From assembly GCA_964651145.1 (NCBI GenBank), contig CAZYVR010000044.1, positions 1 to 23,600 on the forward strand: a DNA stretch of 23,600 bases, in the 5' to 3' direction. This DNA is from an uncultured Victivallales bacterium (GTDB lineage: Bacteria > Verrucomicrobiota > Lentisphaeria > Victivallales > GWF2-45-14). This document shows positions 5,672-20,772 of the stretch, piece by piece. How positions within the stretch are numbered: the stretch's first letter is position 1; every line of letters starts with the position of its first letter. Made by a program: the position numbers and the translations under genes. Below the pieces are notes generated by a model. That model made no database searches, was not told where the DNA came from, and was given only the letters and a program-made list of their open reading frames with translations.

Positions 5672-7963
5672 ATGAAAATGATAAAGCTGTATTTCTTTTG
5701 CTTTGTTTTGTGTTCTGTTTTATTTACAGGATGCTACTCTGAAAAAAGATATAATCACATCAAAGAAAAAGAATATCCAATAATTCAATTTGGCGCTGAC
5801 GGATCGGACGACAAGGATGATACGGAGGCATTCATAAAATTCCTCAAATCGACAGAAGAGCCTTGTGATTTATTCATACCTCCCGGAATTTATAAAATCA
5901 AAAAATTGATCATACCTGAAAAAATACGTCTTAATTTTGCAAATGGAGCTGTTTTTGATGTAGAACAATCCCTTAAAATAAATGGTCCTATTCAAGCGGG
6001 GATACAACAAATTTTTTCAGGCAATGGAAAAATAAATGGAAATATAAAAACAAACAGAGTTTTCCCACAGTGGTTTGGCGCCGCAGGAGACGGGATACAG
6101 GATGACTCTACTGCATTGCAGAACGCGGCGGATCTGGCCTGGAAGTCATCAGGCAAACTTCTGTTTATACCAGAAGGGAAATATCTTTTTGAGAAGGATA
6201 TTATTTTTCGCTGTAATATTGATTCTAACGGAATATTTTTAAAGAAAATTGAAATAGATGATTCAAAAACCGTTTTTTCTTATGCATCATTCTGTCACAG
6301 GCATTATGCTAAACGTTCTAAAATGTTGATTTTTAAAACTGATACCAAAGCTGTCAATTTGTCCCCCAAAGCTTTTTGGGGAATAAAGGAAAATGATTTT
6401 AAAATCCCCAAATTCAAGGGAATAAGCACCGTTGACGGAAAATCAAAAATAAACCTTGAGGAAGGAGCTACAATTAATTTTTTCAGCTCTGATTTTTTCA
6501 CTGCAAGGCAGCATAAACATGGTGATCAAGTTTATTATAAACGTGATATCTGCCAACTGGTCTCTCCGCGTGGAGATGTGTTTCCTGAATTCATGTTTTC
6601 ATTCTTGGCTCCGCCAAAGGCGGAAAAATGGAGCAAATATAAGAAATATAAAAAAGGCAAGTATTGTTCCTGGCAAGGAAATATTTATAAAGCTGTATTG
6701 CCTTCCGGGCCTGCGTCTGTATATAAGAATAAAAATAGATATAAAGGCACTGTGGAGATAGGACCTGTCTGCCCAAGAAAAAGTATGGAAACTTTTTTTA
6801 AGTTTAAATACCCGAATGGGGGGAATGACAAGATTCGTATCTGGAACAAACTTAAAACAATCGTGTCCTATACCCCTCCTCAAAAACCGTTGACTGTCAA
6901 CGGCCTCATTGTTGAAATATATCTTAAGAATTCCGATGGCAAAAGCAAGCGGATATTTGGTTCGGAAACCGTAAAGGTGGAGCGTAGCAACATGATTTTC
7001 AACAACCTTAGAATTTCATGCAAAAGCCGGGAAGCAACCCTGCCTGTTCTCCTGCGCACACTCGAGTGCTTAAACGTCACCTACAATAACTGTTATTTTT
7101 CAGGAGCATCCAATCATGGCTTAGGGTACAATATCGCTAATGCAAGATGTGCTGCAGTAACATATAATAATTGTATATCTGCTAATTGTCGTGATGGGAT
7201 GGGCGGGAAATTTGGAAAAAACATTACGGTAAAAGGAGGTTTTTATAACAGAATAGACGATCATTACGGGAAAAACTATCTTATTAAAGATGTTGTTATT
7301 AATGCGGTTTCAACTTTTATTCCTGGCTACGGAACACCACAGGCAAATCAGGATAAATGGGGATTTAAACCTCATTATGCCTTTGCCTTCAGCGGAGGAA
7401 ACATTAGAATAGAAAATTGCAGGATATATAATTGCGAAGGTGTTTTCTCCGTCAGAACAGATACTGCGGACATGTTTGGCTCTGTAATATTGAAAGATAT
7501 CGATATAATTTCAGACAGGCCTGTCACGCTGTTTTTACATTCAATATCTAAAGATTATTTTGACTATACAGGAAAATTAAGAGTTCCTTCCCAATTACTT
7601 ATAGAAAACATACACATGGAAAAAGATTTTCCATTAAGGATTATGATCAGGAATTTAGAAGCTTATCCATATGGTCGGATTAGTGTGAGAAACTGTCAAT
7701 ATCTTCAGAAGGTCATGCTTATGAATTCCGGGCAGGCTAATTTTACAGAATGTTCATTCAAAAATACAGTTTTTACATGTTCCCCGAAAGAGTTGCTGTT
7801 TTTCAGAAATTGTATTTTTTCAGGAACAACAAAAGGCCTTGAAAAAAAGAATATTGGCATTTCAACCGGCAATATAGATAAAAATGGAACATTGAAATGT
7901 ATTTTAACAGAACAGACGAATGCTCAAAACTCAGAAACAAATCAATCCTCAAAAAAGGAATGA
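5672..7963 (+). CDS. Lipoprotein with right-handed beta-helix / pectate-lyase-superfamily (PF12708-like) domains; putative polysaccharide hydrolase or lyase
   Basis: Signal peptide plus lipobox LFTGC. There are two copies of the pectate-lyase-3/GH55-type N-terminal motif (FGADGSDDKDDTEAF and WFGAAGDGIQDDSTALQNA). Asn/Gly-rich periodic repeats suggest beta-helix coils. The start is ambiguous (ATGs at 5666, 5672 or 5678); I chose 5672 for RBS spacing after AGAGG. Confidence 0.65.
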   Translation: MKMIKLYFFCFVLCSVLFTGCYSEKRYNHIKEKEYPIIQFGADGSDDKDDTEAFIKFLKSTEEPCDLFIPPGIYKIKKLIIPEKIRLNFANGAVFDVEQSLKINGPIQAGIQQIFSGNGKINGNIKTNRVFPQWFGAAGDGIQDDSTALQNAADLAWKSSGKLLFIPEGKYLFEKDIIFRCNIDSNGIFLKKIEIDDSKTVFSYASFCHRHYAKRSKMLIFKTDTKAVNLSPKAFWGIKENDFKIPKFKGISTVDGKSKINLEEGATINFFSSDFFTARQHKHGDQVYYKRDICQLVSPRGDVFPEFMFSFLAPPKAEKWSKYKKYKKGKYCSWQGNIYKAVLPSGPASVYKNKNRYKGTVEIGPVCPRKSMETFFKFKYPNGGNDKIRIWNKLKTIVSYTPPQKPLTVNGLIVEIYLKNSDGKSKRIFGSETVKVERSNMIFNNLRISCKSREATLPVLLRTLECLNVTYNNCYFSGASNHGLGYNIANARCAAVTYNNCISANCRDGMGGKFGKNITVKGGFYNRIDDHYGKNYLIKDVVINAVSTFIPGYGTPQANQDKWGFKPHYAFAFSGGNIRIENCRIYNCEGVFSVRTDTADMFGSVILKDIDIISDRPVTLFLHSISKDYFDYTGKLRVPSQLLIENIHMEKDFPLRIMIRNLEAYPYGRISVRNCQYLQKVMLMNSGQANFTECSFKNTVFTCSPKELLFFRNCIFSGTTKGLEKKNIGISTGNIDKNGTLKCILTEQTNAQNSETNQSSKKE

Positions 7964-13092: not shown

Positions 13093-13124
13093 AGCTTATT
13101 TCCCGCTTCGCTTTGAAATAAGCT
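13093..13124. other. Perfect 10-bp-stem hairpin AGCTTATTTC-N12-GAAATAAGCT in the GH1/NifU-like intergenic region
   Basis: Exact inverted repeat. There is no T-run after it, so it is not a canonical terminator. GC-rich near-palindromes containing GGCGCGCC lie nearby (13139-13153). Confidence 0.4.
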
Positions 13125-13289
13125 TCAGGCTGTCAATGCGCGCTGGCGCGCCAATCCCAAAAATGATACCTTATTTATTCCATAAGAATTAGACGCGCGC
13201 TGGAATTAATGATATATTCATGATTTTGCCGCTTTTATAAAAAGGAAATAATTTTTTTTAGATAAACAATGAAGGAAGGAAAACTCGTT

Positions 13290-13982
13290 ATGAAGTTTAC
13301 ATCTGAAGTGGAAGGCATGATATGCATTGCACAGGGGCCCAATAATGGGCCGTCCCCCATCCCTGAAGAGGGAAAATGGGTGCAGGCTAGAGAAATCAAG
13401 GATATCTCGGGATTGACTCACGGCGTCGGCTGGTGCGCCCCGCAACAGGGAGCATGCAAGCTTACCTTGAATGTCAAAGAAGGCATAATTGAAGAAGCTC
13501 TAGTGGAAACACTGGGCTGCACAGGGATGACTCATTCCGCCGCCATGGCCTCGGAAATACTTCCCGGCAAGACTATTCTTGAAGCCTTGAACACTGACTT
13601 GGTCTGCGATGCCATCAACGTGGCAATGAGGGAACTTTTTCTTCAAATAGCTTACGGCAGAACGCAAACAGCTTTTTCCGAAGGCGGACTTCCAATTGGA
13701 GCCGGACTTGAAGACCTGGGCAAAGGCCTGATGAGCGTGACCGGAACAATGTACGGAACAAAGGCCAAGGGCCCAAGATACCTGCAGGCTGCCGAAGGAT
13801 ATATTTGCGAGCTTGCGCTTGATGACAATGACGAAATCATCGGGTACAAATTTGTAAAGATGGGCATTATGATGGAGAACATCCAAAAAGGGATGGACGC
13901 GGGCGAAGCTCTCAAAAAGGCAACCGGAACATACGGACGCTTTGCCGACGCAGTAAAAACTGTAAATCCTAGACACCAGTAA
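13290..13982 (+). CDS. NifU/IscU-like Fe-S scaffold domain protein with a ~110-aa C-terminal extension
   Basis: GIIEEALVETLGCTGMTHSAAMASEILPGKTILEALN aligns to IscU [38 protein letters not shown]. All three scaffold Cys positions are kept (GACK, GCTGM, LVCDAI), but the CGD Asp and HCS His are not. The start is 13290 (RBS AAGGAAGGAAAA) or 13269. Confidence 0.65.
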   Translation: MKFTSEVEGMICIAQGPNNGPSPIPEEGKWVQAREIKDISGLTHGVGWCAPQQGACKLTLNVKEGIIEEALVETLGCTGMTHSAAMASEILPGKTILEALNTDLVCDAINVAMRELFLQIAYGRTQTAFSEGGLPIGAGLEDLGKGLMSVTGTMYGTKAKGPRYLQAAEGYICELALDDNDEIIGYKFVKMGIMMENIQKGMDAGEALKKATGTYGRFADAVKTVNPRHQ

Positions 13983-13999
13983 ATTAAGGAGCTCATCAT

Positions 14000-14995
14000 A
14001 TGTTATTTGAAAGTTATGAAAGACGGATAGATCAAATTCTCCCTTTGCTGAAAAAGCACGGGATTGATTCTGTGGAAGATGCTCAGGTCGTTTGCAAAGA
14101 CAAAGGTCTTGACATTTATACTTTGGTAAAAGAAATTCAGCCGATATGCTTTGAAGATGCATGCTGGTCATACATTGTCGGAGCTGCTGTGGCTATTAAA
14201 AAAGGCCAGACAGCCGCCACTGATATAGCCGAAACTATCGGTGAAGGATTGCAGGTTTTTTGCATTCCTGGCTCTGTCGCTGACGACAGAAAAGTCGGAA
14301 TCGGACATGGCAACCTGGCTTCCATGCTTCTCAAAGAAGAAACCAAATGCTTTGCGTTTCTGGCTGGACACGAATCCTTTGCCGCCGCAGAAGGCGCAAT
14401 CGGGCTTGCCAATTCCGCCAACAAGGCTAGAACAGAGCCGCTTCGCGTAATTCTCAACGGCCTGGGCAAAGACGCAGCTCAGATTATCGCCAGAATAAAC
14501 GGCTTCACCCATGTTCAGACTAAATTCGACTACTCCACTGGGGCTCTCGAAATTGTCAAAGAAACGCCATATTCAAAAGGCGACAGGGCGAAGGTCAAAT
14601 CTTATGGCGCAGACGATGTTCGCGAAGGCGTGGCTATTTTGACTTATGAAAAAGTCGATGTTTCCATCACTGGAAACTCCACCAATCCGACGCGCTTCCA
14701 GCATCCTGTTGCCGGCACATACAAGAAAGAATGCGTGCTTGCTGGCAGGAAATATTTCTCAGTGGCTTCTGGCGGCGGAACAGGAAGAACTCTTCATCCT
14801 GACAACATGGCTGCCGGCCCGGCCTCTTACGGGATGACTGACACAATGGGCAGGATGCACTCTGACGCTCAGTTTGCTGGTTCCTCTTCTGTCCCGGCGC
14901 ACGTCGAGATGATGGGCTTAATCGGCATGGGCAACAACCCGATGGTTGGAGCTTCTGTCGCTGTTTCAGTAGCTGTTGAAGGAGTTATGAAATAG
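14000..14995 (+). CDS. GGGtGRT-motif protein (uncharacterised conserved family)
   Basis: 331 aa. The literal motif VASGGGTGRTLHPDNMAAGP is present. I recall, but cannot verify, that 'GGGtGRT protein' is the annotation label of a family of unknown function. A strong RBS TAAGGAG lies 8 nt upstream. The gene is 17 bp after the NifU-like gene. Confidence 0.6.
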   Translation: MLFESYERRIDQILPLLKKHGIDSVEDAQVVCKDKGLDIYTLVKEIQPICFEDACWSYIVGAAVAIKKGQTAATDIAETIGEGLQVFCIPGSVADDRKVGIGHGNLASMLLKEETKCFAFLAGHESFAAAEGAIGLANSANKARTEPLRVILNGLGKDAAQIIARINGFTHVQTKFDYSTGALEIVKETPYSKGDRAKVKSYGADDVREGVAILTYEKVDVSITGNSTNPTRFQHPVAGTYKKECVLAGRKYFSVASGGGTGRTLHPDNMAAGPASYGMTDTMGRMHSDAQFAGSSSVPAHVEMMGLIGMGNNPMVGASVAVSVAVEGVMK

Positions 14996-15027
14996 TTCTC
15001 CGAAACAAGTTTTGGAGCTTTTATTTA

Positions 15028-15068
15028 GGGCGCGCCTTGTTCTTTTCAAGGCGCGCCCGTTTTTTTAT
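15028..15068 (+). terminator. Rho-independent terminator for the NifU-like/GGGtGRT operon
   Basis: 12-bp perfect GC-rich stem GGGCGCGCCTTG / CAAGGCGCGCCC with a 7-nt loop, followed by TTTTTTTATTTTT. Confidence 0.85.
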
Positions 15069-15147: not shown

Positions 15148-15188
15148 TACATGTATATAATGTACTATAGCTACATGTATATAATGTA
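15148..15188. promoter_or_regulatory. Two tandem copies (24-bp period) of the near-palindrome TACATGTATATAATGTA upstream of the GntR-type regulator; candidate operator/promoter
   Basis: Exact 17-mer at 15148-15164 and 15172-15188. Each has TACAT/ATGTA inverted arms and an embedded TATAAT. The same half-sites occur in the LacI-gene promoter (3202-3232). Confidence 0.5.
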
Positions 15189-15210
15189 TTAACCGCTCTT
15201 GGGGATTTTT

Positions 15211-16287
15211 ATGCAAGCGACTATGCCGGAATATATGAAGGTAAGGGCATACCTTTACAAGCTGATAATGAGTTCCGACAGAGAATCTCTCCAAATTCCT
15301 CCTGAGAACGAGCTGTGCCGCCTCTTTGATGTCAGTAGGGTTACTGTTCGCGGAGCAATCAAAGGTCTGGTCAAGGACAAATTTCTGATTCCGCGCCGTG
15401 GCCTCGGCACTTTTATAAACCCGGAAACACTCAATCGCAAAACGCTGCAAATGTCTACAATCGGGGTGACTAAAGGCTACGGGAATCATGTATCCAATAC
15501 ATATGACACAGGCATACTTGAAAGCATCATTCAAAGCGGATTGAATTTTGAGCCTGTGTATCTTCCTGATTCAGGCAAGCCGGATACTCTTTTAGAAATA
15601 ATTAGAAGCAGTTTAAGTGGGATCATATGGGAGAACTCGAGTGTCGATTCTTCTTTTGAAAGCTATATTGACGCTCTTTCAAAAAGTGGAATCCCTGCGC
15701 TTTTGGTGGAGGAGGAAAAGCCTCTGGGCGCAAATGATTATATACTTTCAACCCGCGTCCAAAGAGGACGAGTCATTGCTGATTACATGTATTCCAAAGG
15801 ACACAAGAGAGTTTTATTTATTCATAATGACGATTCTTATGACGCGCATTTCAACCCATCTTCGACCTACGGCGGTTATTGTCAGCGCATGACTGAATTA
15901 TGCGGCGATGAGTGGGGGGCTCTCGAAAATAACATTGTCTCAGCTCAAGACTTTAATCGCAAACTTAAAGCCATCAATTCATTTACAGCTGTTTATTCAG
16001 GCAACTATCTGGTTCCTTTTGCAACTGATGAGCTGGCTTCGGCAGGAATATCCGTGCCGGATGATTTGTCGTATCTTGTGTATGAGGAGTCAAGCCCTTT
16101 CTTCTTTAACGGCCTTCAACCTGACTTTATAGATAAAAAAGAGCCGCTTAAAAAAGCTGTCTTTGAATGGCTGAGTCTTAGAGTTTCTAAAGAGAGAAAA
16201 AAATCGGATATCTTTTGCAGAAATATCGAAGTAAAACCTGTTCCAGGCGAAACAGTAAAAGATTTGAATGGAGGGAAAAATGATTAA
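15211..16287 (+). CDS. GntR-family HTH regulator fused to a LacI/PBP-like sugar-binding domain
   Basis: The N-terminal [38 protein letters not shown] is a GntR winged-helix signature. The C-terminal ~270 aa resembles a periplasmic-binding-protein-type effector domain. An alternative TTG start is at 15199. Confidence 0.7.
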
Positions 16288-17029
16288 TAAAAATAAAAGA
16301 TGTTTTAAGAAATTTACACTCATTGAATTGCTCGTTGTAATTGCCATCATAGCAATCCTGGCGAGCATGCTGCTGCCCGCCTTAAACAAAGCGCGCGAGA
16401 CAGGAAAAAGAATCGCCTGTCAGTCAAATGAAAAGCAATTGGGGCTGGCGTTTCAGATGTATCTGGGTTCGTGGGATGGCTGGTGGTTTGATCCAACCTG
16501 CTCTGATGATGACTTAAAAAAATGGCCGAAAATTCTCATTGAGGAAGGATCCGTAAAACAAGGCAGGCATCCAGTTGACTTTGACCTGCATTGCCCTAGC
16601 CGCCTTTCCCCGGGGCCAGACCCTTACAATTGGGACACTCTTGAGCATGATAATTTTACTGATTACGCTTTGTGCGCCACCAATTACTGGTCAGGAGGAG
16701 GTTTAAAAGGCGTTCATTCTGATTACAGCGGATGCAAAGCCAATCAAATAAATAACCCATCTAATTTTATAGTCCTCACTGAACGTTGGGATAAAAATCC
16801 AAAGACAATCAACAGCACGCTGGTGCGTGATCGAAGATACTGGCCAGGCGGCGCCAATGACACCTTTCTCCATCCATGGATGCATGACAAAAGCAGCAAT
16901 TATTTGTTTGCTGACGGTCACGTGGAGTCTATTTTGGCAAAGCAATTGAGATTGGAAAGGTTTATGCTGGGAACGAATCAAGGATATTATGACGCTAATA
17001 AAGATTTTCAGCCAACTTGTCCATGGTAA
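16280..17029 (+). CDS. Prepilin-type N-terminal cleavage/methylation domain protein with C-terminal H-X9-DG (DUF1559-like) motif
   Basis: [26 protein letters not shown] is the class-III signal/methylation motif. The C-terminal [21 protein letters not shown] contains H-X9-DG. The GGAGGG RBS overlaps the last 8 bp of the GntR gene. Confidence 0.8.
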
Positions 17030-17079: not shown

Positions 17080-20000
17080 ATGAGGAAGAGTTGTTACTTG
17101 GCTTTGGCCGCAACGGTATTGACATCGTGCACAATTTTTGATAAGGCTACAGAGAATATTCCGCCAGTCAAAGTGGATAATTCCATTGGCAAAAGAATGA
17201 TAGAAAGACCTAAGTCACCTAGGGTGTTTAATGGCGATTTTGATCTGGGAACAGCCGGCTGGGCATTGAAATATTATGTTAACGCAAAGGGAGCATTTAA
17301 AGACAATATTCCTCAGTTGACCACAGTCCCAACGCCTGAAGGAAAAGGCTCTTGCTTGAAAGCCGCATCTATTTCCGGCGCGCATCTTTATTGGCTTGCG
17401 GGACGTGAAGTTTACCTGAAAAAAGGAGCCAAAGTTGACCTAAGCTTTAGAGCCAAAATAAAGAAATTTCCAGGCTGCGCGGATATAAAAGACTTTTTTA
17501 TAGACTTCAGGAATTTCAACAAACATCATCATGGAATGAGCACGGCTGAAAGATATTGGATTACTGGTGTTAGGTTAAAAAAAGTTTCTGAAAAATGGAA
17601 AACAGCCAGCAAGATTTTGACCATCCCAAGGGATGGCTATTATTTCTTTCGCTTTGTAATTCAGCCCAAAGACAAAAGCAAGCCGTTCCCAGATATCTAT
17701 ATTGATTCTGTAAAACTAACTCCTCTCAATGACAAAGCCAAATCTGCTGGAATCATTCCGCAAATTGCAATTTATGAGAATAAAAACATTCCGGCATATG
17801 GAATAGAAGAAAAAATCAACTATGAGGTCAAAGCGAAATTTTTCGATTCATCTAAGAAAGTTAAAAAAGTTTCAATGGATATAGTTGACGACCAGACTTT
17901 GGAGCCTGTGTTAAGCAGGGAGGTTGAGCTCGTCCGCAAAGGAAATGGCATATACGAAGGCACATGCAGTTTTAAGCCCAACCGCTACGGAAGCTATTCC
18001 ACGCGTGTTCGCAATGATAAAAATTCTGCGCTTGATTGGTTTGGCGGTGATTTCAGCGTTATGCATCCTATTCTTAAGCATGATTCAAATTCCATAGCAA
18101 AAGGGATTGGCATAAACGGAGAAGCGCATGCGCCTGGAAAATTGACGAGCAAAAAATTTCATTTTTATGCAACCTCAGGAACGCTCAAGCGTTATTTTGA
18201 TGTATTGCGTGTAGCTGGCATTGGAAATGTTCGCTCCTGGAATTTTAGATGGAAATTTGTTGAGCCGGAAAAGGGCAAATTTGACTTTTCTCAAACAGAT
18301 ATGATAGTGCGCGAGCACAAGAAGCGCGGCATTGACTTGATCGGCACGCTTGGCTTGGATTTCACCAAACGGAAAGCCATAAAAAGAAAACGAAATATTC
18401 CTGACTGGGTTTTGCCTTTATGCAAAATGCATAAAGTGAGCAAAGCACACAGCATGGAAGCCTTTGTCCCTCCATTCGATTTGTGGGAAAATTACTGCAA
18501 GGCTTTGATGGGGCATTACAAAAACGACATTAAAGTATGGGAAGTTTTCAACGAGCCTAATGGATGGATGACTCCGAAAAATTATTTGGAGTATGTTAAA
18601 GCCGCGCGCAGAGCCGCAGACTCTGTGTCGCCAGACATAAAAATCATTGGGCCATGTCCTACTGGAGATTTTGCGGCTGACCGCTTTGCCGGATGGTCAA
18701 AAGAATTCCTAGCGCTTGGCGGAGAAAAATACATAGACGGCTTTGCCTATCATCCCTATGGAGCTTCAAATGACTTTCAAAATGGGAAATTTTTTGAGGC
18801 AACCGCAACTATTGACTCAATCCGCTCATGGCTGAAAAATAAGTCTTTGCCTCTATACAACACAGAGTGCTATCACTTTCCAAACTCCCTGCTTTTGCGA
18901 ACAACGCAGGGAGATGCATCCACTTTGTTGCGCCATTACCTGATAACTTTGGGCAAAGGCGTAAAAAGCAGCGCGTCTATTGCGGCTCAGCAAATTTTTA
19001 AATTCAGATTGAATCCTCACATTTGCTTGAATATGACTCACAATATGGAATCGGTTCCCGGTCCGATAGCCGCCGCTTTAAACAACCTGGCATTCCAGTT
19101 GAAAGACATGACAAAGACTGAGTCTCTAAAACTTAACAAGTTTATCAACTGCTATGTTTTTTCCGGCGCAAAAGATGAAGGAGCTCTTGCCGTCCTTTGG
19201 GATTTGCGTCCGAACGGCAACCAGTGGACCTCCAAGGCGAGCGCAAGCAATCTGCGCTTTCTGGACATGTGGGGCAATCAAATAAATGCAGACGGCAAAG
19301 GCATTCACTTAGGGCTTAATCCTGTTTATGCTTCCGGCAAGAAAAGTGAAATTGAAAATTACTTGCAGAAATCAAAATTTCAGTTGTCTGCTCCTGTGAA
19401 AATAACAGGGCGTTTTTTCAAGAACGACCTTTATCTCAACGCTAAAAACATGTCGGGCATGTGCTTTGCGCCAGAGGTAGAATTCACTTCTGTTAAAGAA
19501 CTGAATTTGCCCAAATCTGCGCAGTTTGCTTTTGCGAACAATCCAGACTGTTCCGTTTTTTTGCCGGGCGCTGCAAAGGGAACCGCAACTTCTGCGGGCG
19601 CAACGTTTGATGTAATAGTCAAAAACGAAAAAATAGGTTCGGACAAAATAAAATTGCTCCCAAAGAATCCGGCTTATGATCTGCCGTTTGCAGGAGCCAA
19701 GCCGCTGGAGCTGACGCTTCCGGGAGGCTCAATAGCAAAGCTTGTTGCCCAAAAAGATTCTCTGTCAATCACTGTGACAGTCAAAGATAAAAATATAGTG
19801 TCCCCAAAAAAGCATAAGCCCTGGAGTGGCGATGCGGTGGAAGTGTTTGTGGACACTGCTCCGTTTGCAAGTCTTGAGAGAAATCTCATACATGGCGGAG
19901 AAGGCGCGTTGCCTGTGCGTCAGTATATAATCCCGGCAAAACCGAACGCTGGAGAAAAGCAGTTCTGGACCAGCAACAAAAGTCCTGAGTCCCCAACTGT

Positions 20001-20772
20001 CAAAACACAAAAGACATCGGCTGGGTACAAAGTTAACATTCAGATTCCATGGAAAGCCATCAAGCCATCCGGCAATCGCTATGGAATATACGGCATTGAT
20101 ATTGAAGTCGACCATGTTAAGGCTATTGGCGGAAAAAATATCAAAGAAACGCTAAGCGGCAAGCCTGGGCAGTCATACAAAATTCGTCTCCACTATCCGC
20201 TGTTCAGCGTTCCTGAGCAGGCTGAGCTTTATTCAGGCTTTGACGCGCTGGGCGCGGAAAAACTTGTTAATGGATCATTTGAGAAAAAAAAAGAAAAGGA
20301 AAACGAGCCGAAAGGTTGGATGAACAGATGGGATCGCAAAAAAAAAGTGTATGACTATGGGGATTTTGGTTATAACGGGACAAAGGGCGTGACTGTAAAA
20401 CTTGATACGCCGTCAATAAAGCATGTTCAGGGATGGCCTCAAAAAATCAAATGCAATCCAGACGGGAAAACCAATCTGTTGATTGAAGGCTTCGTAAAAG
20501 CGGAAAATATTAAAAAGGCAGAGGGAGAAAAAAGAAGAGCTGGCCTGCGTTTTTTCTGCCATTTTTATAATGATGTCAAAAAGAAACACATGGATAATAT
20601 AGGCATTGGCGTAAACGAAAGCATTACAGGCTCTTTTGGATGGAAAAAAATCCAATGCGTCATTCCTGTCCCCAGAGGCGCTACATCCTGTCAGCTTTCA
20701 TGCGGTTTGAGCCAAGGGGTCACTGGCGCTGTATGGTTCGATGACGTTCATATAAAAACAATAAGCAAATAG
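17080..20772 (+). CDS. Large multidomain glycoside-hydrolase lipoprotein (GH clan-A catalytic domain flanked by CBM-like beta-sandwich domains)
   Basis: 1230 aa. Lipoprotein signal with lipobox LTSC. The clan GH-A acid/base motif is VWEVFNEPNGW. The nucleophile candidate is LYNTECY. The N-terminal region (VFNGDFDLGTAGW) and C-terminal region (LVNGSFE...GW) look CBM4/9/22-like. The DAVEVFVDTAPF segment looks CBM9-like. AGGAG RBS. Confidence 0.7.
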   Translation: MRKSCYLALAATVLTSCTIFDKATENIPPVKVDNSIGKRMIERPKSPRVFNGDFDLGTAGWALKYYVNAKGAFKDNIPQLTTVPTPEGKGSCLKAASISGAHLYWLAGREVYLKKGAKVDLSFRAKIKKFPGCADIKDFFIDFRNFNKHHHGMSTAERYWITGVRLKKVSEKWKTASKILTIPRDGYYFFRFVIQPKDKSKPFPDIYIDSVKLTPLNDKAKSAGIIPQIAIYENKNIPAYGIEEKINYEVKAKFFDSSKKVKKVSMDIVDDQTLEPVLSREVELVRKGNGIYEGTCSFKPNRYGSYSTRVRNDKNSALDWFGGDFSVMHPILKHDSNSIAKGIGINGEAHAPGKLTSKKFHFYATSGTLKRYFDVLRVAGIGNVRSWNFRWKFVEPEKGKFDFSQTDMIVREHKKRGIDLIGTLGLDFTKRKAIKRKRNIPDWVLPLCKMHKVSKAHSMEAFVPPFDLWENYCKALMGHYKNDIKVWEVFNEPNGWMTPKNYLEYVKAARRAADSVSPDIKIIGPCPTGDFAADRFAGWSKEFLALGGEKYIDGFAYHPYGASNDFQNGKFFEATATIDSIRSWLKNKSLPLYNTECYHFPNSLLLRTTQGDASTLLRHYLITLGKGVKSSASIAAQQIFKFRLNPHICLNMTHNMESVPGPIAAALNNLAFQLKDMTKTESLKLNKFINCYVFSGAKDEGALAVLWDLRPNGNQWTSKASASNLRFLDMWGNQINADGKGIHLGLNPVYASGKKSEIENYLQKSKFQLSAPVKITGRFFKNDLYLNAKNMSGMCFAPEVEFTSVKELNLPKSAQFAFANNPDCSVFLPGAAKGTATSAGATFDVIVKNEKIGSDKIKLLPKNPAYDLPFAGAKPLELTLPGGSIAKLVAQKDSLSITVTVKDKNIVSPKKHKPWSGDAVEVFVDTAPFASLERNLIHGGEGALPVRQYIIPAKPNAGEKQFWTSNKSPESPTVKTQKTSAGYKVNIQIPWKAIKPSGNRYGIYGIDIEVDHVKAIGGKNIKETLSGKPGQSYKIRLHYPLFSVPEQAELYSGFDALGAEKLVNGSFEKKKEKENEPKGWMNRWDRKKKVYDYGDFGYNGTKGVTVKLDTPSIKHVQGWPQKIKCNPDGKTNLLIEGFVKAENIKKAEGEKRRAGLRFFCHFYNDVKKKHMDNIGIGVNESITGSFGWKKIQCVIPVPRGATSCQLSCGLSQGVTGAVWFDDVHIKTISK

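What the first reader, a model, noticed from the sequence alone, without database searches (positions are those of the whole stretch)
13269..15068. Compact operon of a NifU/IscU-like scaffold variant plus a GGGtGRT-motif protein, closed by a very strong terminator
Two genes sit 17 bp apart with their own strong RBSs, in a tight operon ended by a perfect 12-bp GC stem plus T-run. The first keeps the three IscU Cys positions but has lost the canonical Asp (CGD) and His (HCS). It also carries a ~110-aa C-terminal extension. The second carries the literal motif SGGGTGRT, matching a family I recall only as an unexplained annotation label. To my knowledge no function is established for this pair. 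It is embedded here between thiG/GH1 and a sugar-responsive regulator. One hypothesis is that the pair forms an uncharacterised metal- or sulfur-handling module, and thiG is only 1.7 kb upstream. This is the best candidate in the window for an undescribed system.
Basis: partly seen in the sequence, partly recalled or inferred. Interest (0 to 1): 0.75.

Follow-up and report, generated by a model that had tools for sequence, protein, structure and literature searches.

The report
Conserved iron-responsive NifU-like/GGGtGRT gene pair
The two genes are real and are one copy of an extraordinarily conserved, abundant, iron-regulated protein pair found in anaerobic bacteria of many phyla; its function is still unknown, but gene neighbourhoods and published genetics now point towards the lower part of glycolysis.

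Summary
A 230-aa IscU-fold protein (true start 13290, not 13269) and a 331-aa PF14057 "GGGtGRT" protein lie 17 nt apart, each with a Shine-Dalgarno site, and end at a 12-bp GC hairpin plus T-run.

The pair is not new as an entity. It is annotated in thousands of genomes and named in papers (B. thetaiotaomicron BT0173-4, C. pasteurianum F502_05012/17), but no function is assigned.

- The IscU-like gene sits directly upstream in 77 of 77 informative loci from over ten phyla.
- No third gene is conserved, so the thiG/GH1/regulator context is incidental.
- Conservation is extreme: mean 81% identity and 163 of 331 residues invariant across 80 species, while synonymous sites are saturated and GC3 follows the host.
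- The GGGtGRT protein has no sequence or fold relative beyond a generic Rossmann-like core.
- The partner keeps three invariant Cys but lacks the IscU scaffold hallmarks.
- A divergent clade always clusters the pair with ApgM-type phosphoglycerate mutase and histidine-phosphatase genes. Main-clade loci repeatedly adjoin enolase or phosphoglycerate mutase genes.
- Published data show iron-replete expression and a glucose-signalling phenotype alongside pfkA.

Best guess: a two-subunit Fe-S protein acting on a phosphorylated C3 metabolite. Confidence is low to moderate.

The parts
13190..13218 (+). Promoter-like site (TAGACG-17-TATATT with TG extension). Tentative.
   Evidence: Consensus scan. 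The number of such sites is not above the shuffle expectation, so this is only a candidate.
13272..13279 (+). Shine-Dalgarno-like AAGGAAGG for gene A
   Evidence: Read from the sequence. It lies 10 nt upstream of ATG 13290.
13290..13982 (+). Gene A: 230-aa IscU-fold protein (the 'NifU-like' partner). The ORF opens at 13269, but homologues and gene callers use 13290.
   Evidence: 112 homologues are 81-89% identical.
13395..13655 (+). IscU-like domain of A (about residues 36-122). Invariant Cys codons: C49 (13434-36), C77 (13518-20), C106 (13605-07). C56 (13455-57) is Cys in 100 of 112 sequences.
13662..13979 (+). C-terminal domain of A, about 105 aa (beta-sheet plus helices), with no sequence family
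13986..13991 (+). Shine-Dalgarno AAGGAG for gene B
   Evidence: Read from the sequence. It lies 8 nt upstream of ATG 14000.
14000..14995 (+). Gene B: 331-aa GGGtGRT protein (PF14057)
   Evidence: Pfam 630 bits, full length. 115 homologues are 81-89% identical.
14345..14770 (+). Rossmann-like alpha/beta core of B (about residues 116-257), with invariant strand-end loops AGHES, NGLGKDAA, GADDVREG and TGNSTNPT
14768..14791 (+). SGGGTGRT motif (residues 257-264), directly after the last beta-strand of the core
14774..14899 (+). Almost wholly invariant segment (residues 259-300) that AF2 cannot place (pLDDT below 50). A candidate cofactor-, ligand- or partner-binding region.
15028..15066 (+). Intrinsic terminator: 12-bp perfect stem, 7-nt loop, T-run

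Best explanation
The two genes encode the subunits of one obligate, iron-dependent protein complex that is a core but conditionally dispensable component of anaerobic metabolism.

Subunit A uses an IscU fold. It has lost the features that make IscU a transient scaffold and probably holds a permanent Fe-S cluster (or metal) on three invariant cysteines.

Subunit B is the ligand-binding or catalytic subunit. It has a helical bundle and a Rossmann-like sheet. The invariant Gly/Ser/Thr/His/Asp-rich loops at the strand ends, including GGGTGRT, look like phosphate-binding loops.

The most likely substrate or effector is a phosphorylated C3 intermediate of lower glycolysis (the 3-phosphoglycerate / 2-phosphoglycerate / PEP segment). 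The cluster would serve either as a Lewis acid or as an electron relay.

What is shown: the pairing, the conservation, the fold assignments, the neighbourhoods and the published regulation.
What is inferred: complex formation, cluster binding, the phosphate ligand and the link to glycolysis.
For: Obligate pairing:
- A lies immediately upstream of B in 77 of 77 loci with upstream DNA.
- The pair is also intact in the most divergent clade, where stop and start overlap, and in Vibrio.

Strong, ancient purifying selection:
- Across 80 species the minimum pairwise identity is 70% and the mean 81%; 163 of 331 positions are invariant.
- Third codon positions are only 35-41% identical. GC3 follows the host from 0.21 to 0.91.
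- In the 50%-identity library the family collapses to about two real full-length clusters.

Subunit A:
- IscU fold.
- C49, C77 and C106 are invariant, including in the divergent partner.
- The Asp, His and LPPVK features are missing.

Subunit B:
- Rossmann-like core with conserved strand-end loops.

Iron:
- The B. thetaiotaomicron pair falls 11- to 12.8-fold on iron depletion (PMC10434189).
- In C. pasteurianum both proteins are 3.7- to 7.1-fold higher with iron, like hydrogenase and PFOR (PMC5395762).

Glycolysis link:
- All 6 divergent-clade members examined cluster the pair with a bona fide ApgM phosphoglycerate mutase (NCBIfam 517 bits against a cut-off of 489) and a His_Phos_1 gene.
- Some of these clusters also carry iPGM or a HAD phosphatase.
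- In the main clade, enolase lies within 6 kb in 3 loci, directly upstream in Akkermansia. There is also iPGM in 1 locus, an ApgM-like gene in 1 and His_Phos_1 in 2.
- Transposon hits in BT0173-4 came out of the same glucose-repression screen as pfkA (bioRxiv 10.64898/2026.04.10.717545).

Abundance: the proteins are prominent in gut and rumen (meta)proteomes.
Against: - No biochemical evidence exists for a cluster, a complex or any ligand.
- The AF2 model of A is poor (pLDDT 65) and no multimer model could be made.
- B has no significant structural relative (no Foldseek hit at E <= 1e-3). hhalign against E. coli PfkA gives probability 0.13.
- Glycolytic neighbours occur in only about 7 of 80 main-clade loci. 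The enrichment estimate is post hoc and rough. The L046 ApgM-like gene also passes the 'proposed homoserine kinase' model.
- His_Phos_1 is a broad phosphatase family.
- The B. thetaiotaomicron phenotype is modest (2-fold), and the mutants grow like wild type on glucose. A major glycolytic role is therefore excluded.
- In Parabacteroides the pair is flanked by TlpA, OsmC and a nitroreductase, which hints at redox stress instead.
- The conserved Cys of B (C88, C117, C245) are lost in the divergent clade.
Confidence: 0.35

Rival explanations
1. An alternative Fe-S cluster assembly or delivery module. A would be a scaffold or carrier on which clusters are built or parked. B would be a nucleotide-dependent partner that loads or releases them. 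This is the sense of NCBI's name 'iron-sulfur cluster assembly scaffold protein'.
For: - IscU fold and three Cys.
- Gly-rich loops in B could bind a nucleotide.
- IscU itself is among the most conserved proteins (general knowledge).
- Expression follows iron supply.
- The source annotations give this name.
Against: - Scores are far below the IscU, NifU and SufU equivalog cut-offs: 15-26 bits against 92-273.
- The cluster-labilising Asp, the His and the LPPVK chaperone loop are absent.
- No cysteine desulfurase or any other biogenesis gene is a conserved neighbour.
- The proteins are very abundant, which is unusual for an assembly factor.
- C. difficile lists a separate canonical iscR-iscS2-nifU operon.
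Confidence: 0.2
2. An abundant redox or stress protein rather than a metabolic enzyme. Examples would be an NAD(P)H-linked Fe-S oxidoreductase, an electron carrier, or an iron/Fe-S buffer that protects anaerobes. It would be dispensable in the laboratory.
For: - The C-terminal domain of A resembles FMN-binding domains.
- Mutants grow normally in vitro.
- The proteins are co-listed with rubrerythrins among commonly expressed proteins.
- Parabacteroides neighbours are TlpA, OsmC and a nitroreductase.
- The pair is repressed when iron is scarce, as iron-rich dispensable proteins often are.
Against: - No flavin or NAD family is detected by sequence.
- All fold matches are generic.
- This reading does not explain the conserved phosphoglycerate mutase/phosphatase cluster of the divergent clade.
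- It also does not explain the pfkA-like screen hit.
Confidence: 0.2
3. A locally acting module tied to its neighbours in this window: thiazole synthesis (thiG), beta-glucoside use (GH1) or the downstream GntR-type regulator.
For: Only physical proximity in this contig.
Against: - The neighbours differ in nearly every other genome; no family occurs in more than 3 of about 100 flanking genes on either side.
- The operon has its own promoter-like region and a strong terminator.
Confidence: 0.02
4. A nucleotide-binding polymer or cytoskeletal-type protein. GGGTGRT resembles the tubulin/FtsZ signature GGGTG[ST]G, and extreme conservation is typical of polymer-forming proteins.
For: Motif resemblance (my own recall), and the unusually high conservation and abundance.
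Against: - There is no Pfam or PDB sequence hit.
- The motif follows the last strand of the sheet, not the position of the FtsZ T4 loop.
- An obligate Fe-S-type partner is not expected for such proteins.
Confidence: 0.03

Closest known systems
GGGtGRT protein family (Pfam PF14057) with its 'NifU' partner, e.g. B. thetaiotaomicron BT0173-BT0174, C. pasteurianum F502_05012/F502_05017, C. acetobutylicum AAK80513.1
   Same: - Full-length PF14057 match.
- Same two-gene order.
- 75-89% identity to homologues in many phyla.
   Different: Nothing essential. This is another ortholog, probably from a Lentisphaerota or Victivallis-like organism. The family itself has no assigned function.
IscU / NifU N-terminal domain Fe-S scaffold (PF01592, TIGR01999)
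   Same: - 43% identity over 49 residues around the central GC motif.
- Three invariant Cys.
   Different: - Scores fall below all family cut-offs.
- The first and third Cys are displaced.
- Asp39, His105 and the LPPVK loop are absent.
- An extra N-terminal 35 residues and a 105-aa C-terminal domain are present.
- It is never next to a cysteine desulfurase, and always next to GGGtGRT.
Fe-S enzymes with a three-Cys cluster and an open iron site (aconitase-type hydro-lyases, L-serine dehydratase, class I fumarase). This is an analogy from general knowledge.
   Same: Exactly three invariant Cys on A, repression under iron limitation, and predominance in anaerobes.
   Different: There is no sequence or fold relation. 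The analogy is mechanistic only and untested.
Phosphate-binding Rossmann-like domains (SIS phosphosugar-binding domains, phosphofructokinase, NAD(P)-binding domains)
   Different: - hhalign against E. coli PfkA gives probability 0.13.
- The motifs are not collinear with any of these families.
- TM-scores are about 0.24.
- The N-terminal helical bundle and the invariant 259-300 segment have no counterpart.

Membership tests
GGGtGRT protein family (PF14057) | Full-length match to the Pfam model above the gathering score | tested here: met
   630.1 bits against a cut-off of 27; residues 3-327 match model positions 1-325 of 327.
GGGtGRT protein family (PF14057) | Literal GGGTGRT motif in a protein of about 330 aa | tested here: met
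   SGGGTGRT at residues 257-264. It is invariant in 115 homologues and in 80 species.
GGGtGRT protein family (PF14057) | IscU-like partner gene immediately upstream (an empirical property of the family found here) | tested here: met
   17-nt gap in the window. The same arrangement holds in 77 of 77 informative loci.
IscU/NifU_N Fe-S scaffold (PF01592; TIGR01999, TIGR03419, TIGR01994) | Score above the curated family cut-off | tested here: not met
   Pfam 21.1 against 22. NCBIfam 26.2, 21.5 and 17.1 against 187.9, 192.4 and 92.5.
IscU/NifU_N Fe-S scaffold | IscU fold | tested here: met
   [not shown]
IscU/NifU_N Fe-S scaffold | Three cluster-ligand Cys at the canonical positions | tested here: inconclusive
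   C77 aligns with IscU C63. C49 and C56 flank the position of C37. C106 follows NTDL after a deletion of about 11 residues. All three are invariant.
IscU/NifU_N Fe-S scaffold | Asp after the first Cys, His before the third Cys, and the LPPVK chaperone-binding loop | tested here: not met
   The sequence reads WCAPQQGAC and LVCD. The segment equivalent to AEELELPPVKIH is absent.
IscU/NifU_N Fe-S scaffold | Genomic association with a cysteine desulfurase or other biogenesis genes | tested here: not met
   No Pfam family occurs in more than 3 of the 95 upstream or 113 downstream neighbours.
IscU/NifU_N Fe-S scaffold | Binds and transfers a labile Fe-S cluster | not testable with these tools
   Needs anaerobic biochemistry.
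Tubulin/FtsZ GTPases | FtsZ/tubulin fold with the GGGTG[ST]G T4 loop | tested here: not met
   [not shown]
Phosphofructokinase family (PF00365) | Sequence or profile similarity and collinear catalytic motifs | tested here: not met
   Foldseek E 0.0096 and TM 0.24. hhalign probability 0.13, with only 16 columns aligned.
FMN_bind domain (NqrC/RnfG type), for the C-terminal domain of A | Fold and sequence match, plus the flavinylation motif | tested here: inconclusive
   [not shown]

The most novel reading that the evidence does not exclude
The NifU-like/GGGtGRT pair is a previously unrecognised class of two-subunit Fe-S enzyme. It would have a repurposed IscU fold and an orphan Rossmann-like catalytic subunit, and would act on phosphoglycerate or a related phosphorylated C3 metabolite. 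That would make it an iron-dependent side route or control point of lower glycolysis, common to anaerobes of the gut, the rumen and sediments.
Probability: 0.25. Interest if true: 0.85.

Novelty: new member of a known kind. Interest (0 to 1): 0.62.

Why it matters
- This is one of the most strongly conserved protein pairs without a function. Its conservation is at about the level I would expect of EF-Tu, across Bacillota, Bacteroidota, Verrucomicrobiota, Spirochaetota, Desulfobacterota, Acidobacteriota, Actinomycetota and others.
- It is among the abundant proteins of gut and rumen anaerobes, and it responds strongly to iron.
- Assigning its function would fill a gap in the core physiology of anaerobes and of the human gut microbiota.
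- The clues assembled here turn an unexplained annotation label into concrete experiments. They are the obligate pairing, the non-scaffold IscU fold, a conserved phosphoglycerate mutase/phosphatase cluster in a divergent clade, and a hit in the same genetic screen as pfkA.

Tried and rejected
- **PDB by sequence.** The single sequence of B found nothing and the profile of B found only noise. A found only weak IscU hits.
- **PFK homology.** Suggested by Foldseek and by motif look-alikes (IPGSVADD against LPGTIDND, and MGR). Rejected by hhalign, probability 0.13, and by non-collinear motifs.
- **Natural A-B fusions or longer architectures.** All longer 'homologues' are assembly chimeras or internal duplications.
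- **A conserved third gene.** None found.
- **A cis-regulatory RNA in the leader or 3' end.** Only sub-threshold Rfam noise.
- **Archaeal occurrence.** The 'Methanobrevibacter' contig L071 has bacterial-type neighbours, so this is probably bin contamination.
- **Plasmid or phage carriage.** The hits are large secondary replicons, mislabelled chromosome pieces, or unannotated faecal 'Bacteriophage sp.' contigs.
- **Literature by locus tag.** BT0173, BT0174 and guessed CAC numbers yielded no functional study.
- **Recent horizontal spread as the cause of the high identity.** Rejected: synonymous sites are saturated, GC3 is host-adapted, and genus-level groups are coherent.
Full report
**1. What is in the sequence**

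Two + strand ORFs occupy 13269-13982 and 14000-14995.

- The second ORF (B, 331 aa) matches Pfam PF14057 'GGGtGRT protein' over its whole length: 630 bits against a cut-off of 27.
- B carries SGGGTGRT at residues 257-264.
- The first ORF scores just below the NifU_N cut-off (21.1 against 22 bits). It falls far below the NCBIfam IscU, NifU and SufU cut-offs.
- Of the 120 best database homologues of the first ORF, 108 are exactly 230 aa and start at its second ATG.
- Gene callers on the same contig do likewise.
- AAGGAAGG precedes that ATG by 10 nt. Gene A is therefore 13290-13982 (230 aa), not 237 aa.
- The A-B gap is 17 nt, with AAGGAG 8 nt before the ATG of B.
- A perfect 12-bp hairpin (10 G-C pairs) plus a T-run at 15028-15066 closes the operon. 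It folds at -27 kcal/mol with z -5.6.
- No known RNA family is present.

**2. The pair is universal; the context is not**

The 80 best loci come from:
- Clostridia and Erysipelotrichia
- Bacteroidales (Prevotella, Alistipes, Parabacteroides, Muribaculaceae)
- Akkermansia and Lentisphaeria
- Treponema
- Desulfobacterota, Geobacter and Syntrophobacter
- Myxococcota
- Acidobacteriota (Holophaga, Solibacteraceae)
- Eggerthellaceae

In all 77 loci that have upstream DNA, the A homologue lies directly upstream of B, usually 14-56 nt away.

Clustering of all flanking ORFs found no third conserved gene. Pfam scans of the two nearest genes on each side (95 upstream, 113 downstream) agreed: no family occurs more than three times.

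The thiG, GH1, GntR and glycan-degradation context of this window is therefore incidental.

The pair is also present in a facultative marine Vibrio and in Persicobacter. blastn does not detect it in 5,426 E. coli genomes.

A 'Methanobrevibacter' MAG contig carrying the pair has bacterial-type neighbours and is probably bin contamination.

**3. Extreme conservation under purifying selection**

- The best 120 homologues of each protein are 81-89% identical, although they come from different phyla.
- Across the 80 species, the minimum pairwise identity of B is 70% and the mean is 81%.
- 163 of 331 positions are invariant. These include almost every residue from 222 to 300.
- Third codon positions are only 35-41% identical. 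GC3 follows the host genome from 0.21 to 0.91.
- Genus-level groups (Prevotella, Akkermansia, Alistipes) are internally coherent.

The genes are therefore old residents of their genomes, not a recent horizontal sweep.

In the library clustered at 50% identity, the family collapses to about two real full-length clusters. The rest are fragments, a frame-shifted sequence and chimeras. No distant relatives are visible.

**4. Anatomy**

*Protein A.*
- hhalign against E. coli IscU gives probability 88% and E 3e-6, with 43% identity over A residues 56-104.
- PDB profile hits are all IscU or ISCU, with E values from 1e-4 to 1e-3.
- C49, C77 and C106 are invariant in 112 sequences. C56 is Cys in 100 and Ser in 12.
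- All four are kept in the partner from the divergent clade.
- Only C77 aligns exactly with an IscU ligand (C63). The canonical C37 position falls between C49 and C56.
- C106 follows 'NTDL' directly, because the roughly 11-residue loop containing LPPVK and His105 is missing.
- The residue after C49 is Ala, not Gly-Asp.

In IscU, Asp39 makes the cluster labile, and Asp39Ala traps it (established knowledge). Its absence here therefore argues for a stable cluster rather than a transient one. This step is inference.

*Protein B.*
- The AF2 model has pLDDT 81 and pTM 0.83.
- It shows a helical bundle (residues 7-111) and a seven-stranded alpha/beta core (117-256).
- The strand-end loops of the core are the invariant motifs AGHES, NGLGKDAA (a GxGxxA pattern), GADDVREG, TGNSTNPT and SGGGTGRT.
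- An invariant segment at 259-300 has pLDDT below 50. C-terminal helices follow.
- PDB sequence searches find nothing.
- Foldseek has no hit at E <= 1e-3. Its best is T. brucei PFK at E 0.0096 and TM 0.24.
- hhalign against E. coli PfkA is negative, probability 0.13.

B is thus an orphan family built on a common alpha/beta theme. Its active-site-like crest is rich in Gly, Ser, Thr, His and Asp, which is typical of phosphate- or nucleotide-binding sites. This too is inference.

**5. Published evidence**

- No paper assigns a function. Several say so explicitly (PMC11204068 and PMC12078515).
- In B. thetaiotaomicron, BT0173 (GGGtGRT) and BT0174 ('NifU') fall 11- to 12.8-fold under iron depletion (PMC10434189).
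- In C. pasteurianum, F502_05012 is 7.1-fold higher and the adjacent F502_05017 is 3.7-fold higher with excess iron in early growth. Hydrogenase-1 and PFOR behave the same way (PMC5395762).
- The proteins are prominent in chicken-gut, rumen and human-gut (meta)proteomes. GGGtGRT is the antigen of a monoclonal antibody raised against Segatella copri.
- A forward screen in B. thetaiotaomicron looked for loss of glucose-dependent repression of the regulator Cur. It hit only three loci: pfkA, an M16 peptidase locus, and BT0173-4.
- The BT0173-4 effect was about 2-fold, and the mutants grew normally on glucose (bioRxiv 10.64898/2026.04.10.717545).

**6. A new contextual lead**

The one truly divergent full-length cluster, P0266, is 54% identical to the window protein. 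It lacks C88, C117 and C245 of B but keeps the AGHES motif and everything from GGGTGRT to the C-terminus.

P0266 belongs to a small clade of about 18 sequence clusters. Neighbours such as YodL and SpoVT point to spore-forming Firmicutes.

The six members I could inspect are P0266, P0403 (more than 45 contigs), P0400, P0394, P0396 and P0404. In every one the pair sits in a conserved cluster:
- An ApgM-type phosphoglycerate mutase. It passes the NCBIfam equivalog cut-off, 517 bits against 489.
- The IscU-like gene.
- GGGtGRT, with overlapping stop and start codons.
- A conserved, membrane-anchored protein of about 320 aa with no family.
- A His_Phos_1 (phosphoglycerate mutase/phosphatase superfamily) gene.
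- In some, an additional iPGM (656 bits against 331) or a HAD phosphatase resembling phosphoglycolate phosphatase.

Re-inspection of the 80 main-clade loci found related neighbours in different phyla:
- Enolase within 6 kb in three loci. In Akkermansia it is directly upstream on the same strand.
- iPGM in one locus.
- An ApgM-like gene in one locus. This one also passes the 'proposed homoserine kinase' model.
- His_Phos_1 immediately adjacent in two loci.

I estimate that fewer than one such neighbour would be expected by chance. That estimate is rough and was made after the fact.

Together with the pfkA-like screen hit, this points to phosphorylated C3 intermediates of lower glycolysis. It does not prove the link.

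**7. Interpretation**

*Best explanation (confidence about 0.35).* A and B form an obligate, iron-dependent complex. The IscU fold has been repurposed to hold a permanent cluster on three Cys. B binds a phosphorylated ligand, most likely from the 3PG/2PG/PEP segment.

The complex is abundant when iron is plentiful and can be spared when it is not. Other Fe-S enzymes of anaerobes behave the same way.

*Rivals.*
- A non-canonical Fe-S assembly or carrier module (0.2). It is weakened by the missing scaffold features, the absence of desulfurase neighbours and the high abundance.
- An NAD(P)H-linked Fe-S redox or stress protein (0.2). It is supported by the GxGxxA pattern, the FMN-bind-like domain, dispensability in vitro, and the TlpA, OsmC and nitroreductase neighbours in Parabacteroides. 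It does not explain the mutase/phosphatase cluster.
- A function tied to thiG or GH1 (0.02).
- A tubulin-like nucleotide-binding polymer (0.03).

**8. Novelty and verdict**

The window copy is an ordinary ortholog of a catalogued but uncharacterised family. I therefore rate it 'new member of a known kind'.

The family itself remains one of the most conserved and abundant function-unknown modules of anaerobes. That keeps the interest fairly high.

The suggested link to thiG or the sugar genes does not.

Noticed in passing
window 15148-15191: A 20-nt direct repeat, TACATGTATATAATGTA(C/T)TA, occurs twice with 24-nt spacing and is partly palindromic. It lies just upstream of the GntR-family regulator gene (15199-16287) and looks like an operator for autoregulation.
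   Followed up: no
window 13138-13146 and 13195-13203: GCGCGCTGG occurs only twice in the 23.6-kb window. Both copies are in the AT-rich region upstream of gene A and flank the promoter-like site. The expected count is 0.08, and 0 of 100 shuffles reach 2. It may be a regulator-binding site.
   Followed up: partly
window 13093-13124: A perfect 10-bp inverted repeat, AGCTTATTTC/GAAATAAGCT, with a 12-nt loop lies downstream of the GH1 gene. It may be that gene's terminator or a binding site.
   Followed up: no
window 16268-17029 and 17080-20772: One ORF has a prepilin-type N-terminal methylation motif ([16 protein letters not shown]) and a faint SBP_bac_10 (DUF1559-like) hit. It is followed by a 1230-aa protein with a CBM9-like domain. 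With GH3, GH1, a pectate-lyase-like protein and LacI/GntR regulators, this suggests a glycan-degrading organism related to Lentisphaerota or Victivallis (best named homologue Victivallis sp.).
   Followed up: partly
proteins P0003, P0006, P0122, P0241, P0250, P0278, P0295, P0305, P0327: Public metagenome protein sets contain many chimeric 'GGGtGRT' or 'NifU-like' ORFs. Some have internal duplications. Others are fused to unrelated proteins such as an ABC ATPase, SusD, Tex or GMP synthase. These look like assembly artefacts at a very conserved gene and could be mistaken for domain fusions.
   Followed up: yes
L084 6992-7972; L087 9005-9958; L091 2067-3065; L093 3808-4770; L097 3124-4101: A conserved protein of about 320 aa lies directly downstream of GGGtGRT in the divergent Firmicute clade. 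It is membrane-anchored at the N-terminus and has no Pfam or NCBIfam match. Identity to the first sequence (L084) is 43-53%.
   Followed up: partly
L100 (Parabacteroides distasonis NZ_OY725823.1) 5794-5985: An annotated 63-aa hypothetical ORF sits between the 'NifU' and GGGtGRT genes. Here the pair is flanked by TlpA disulfide reductase and OsmC upstream and a nitroreductase downstream, which is a redox-stress-like context.
   Followed up: no
L071 (contig labelled Methanobrevibacter MAG): The contig carrying the pair encodes SstT, a bacterial-type Dtd, NAD kinase and malate dehydrogenase. The archaeal label is probably a binning error. Another hit is named Methanobacteriaceae (P0492), so archaeal occurrence remains unresolved.
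   Followed up: partly
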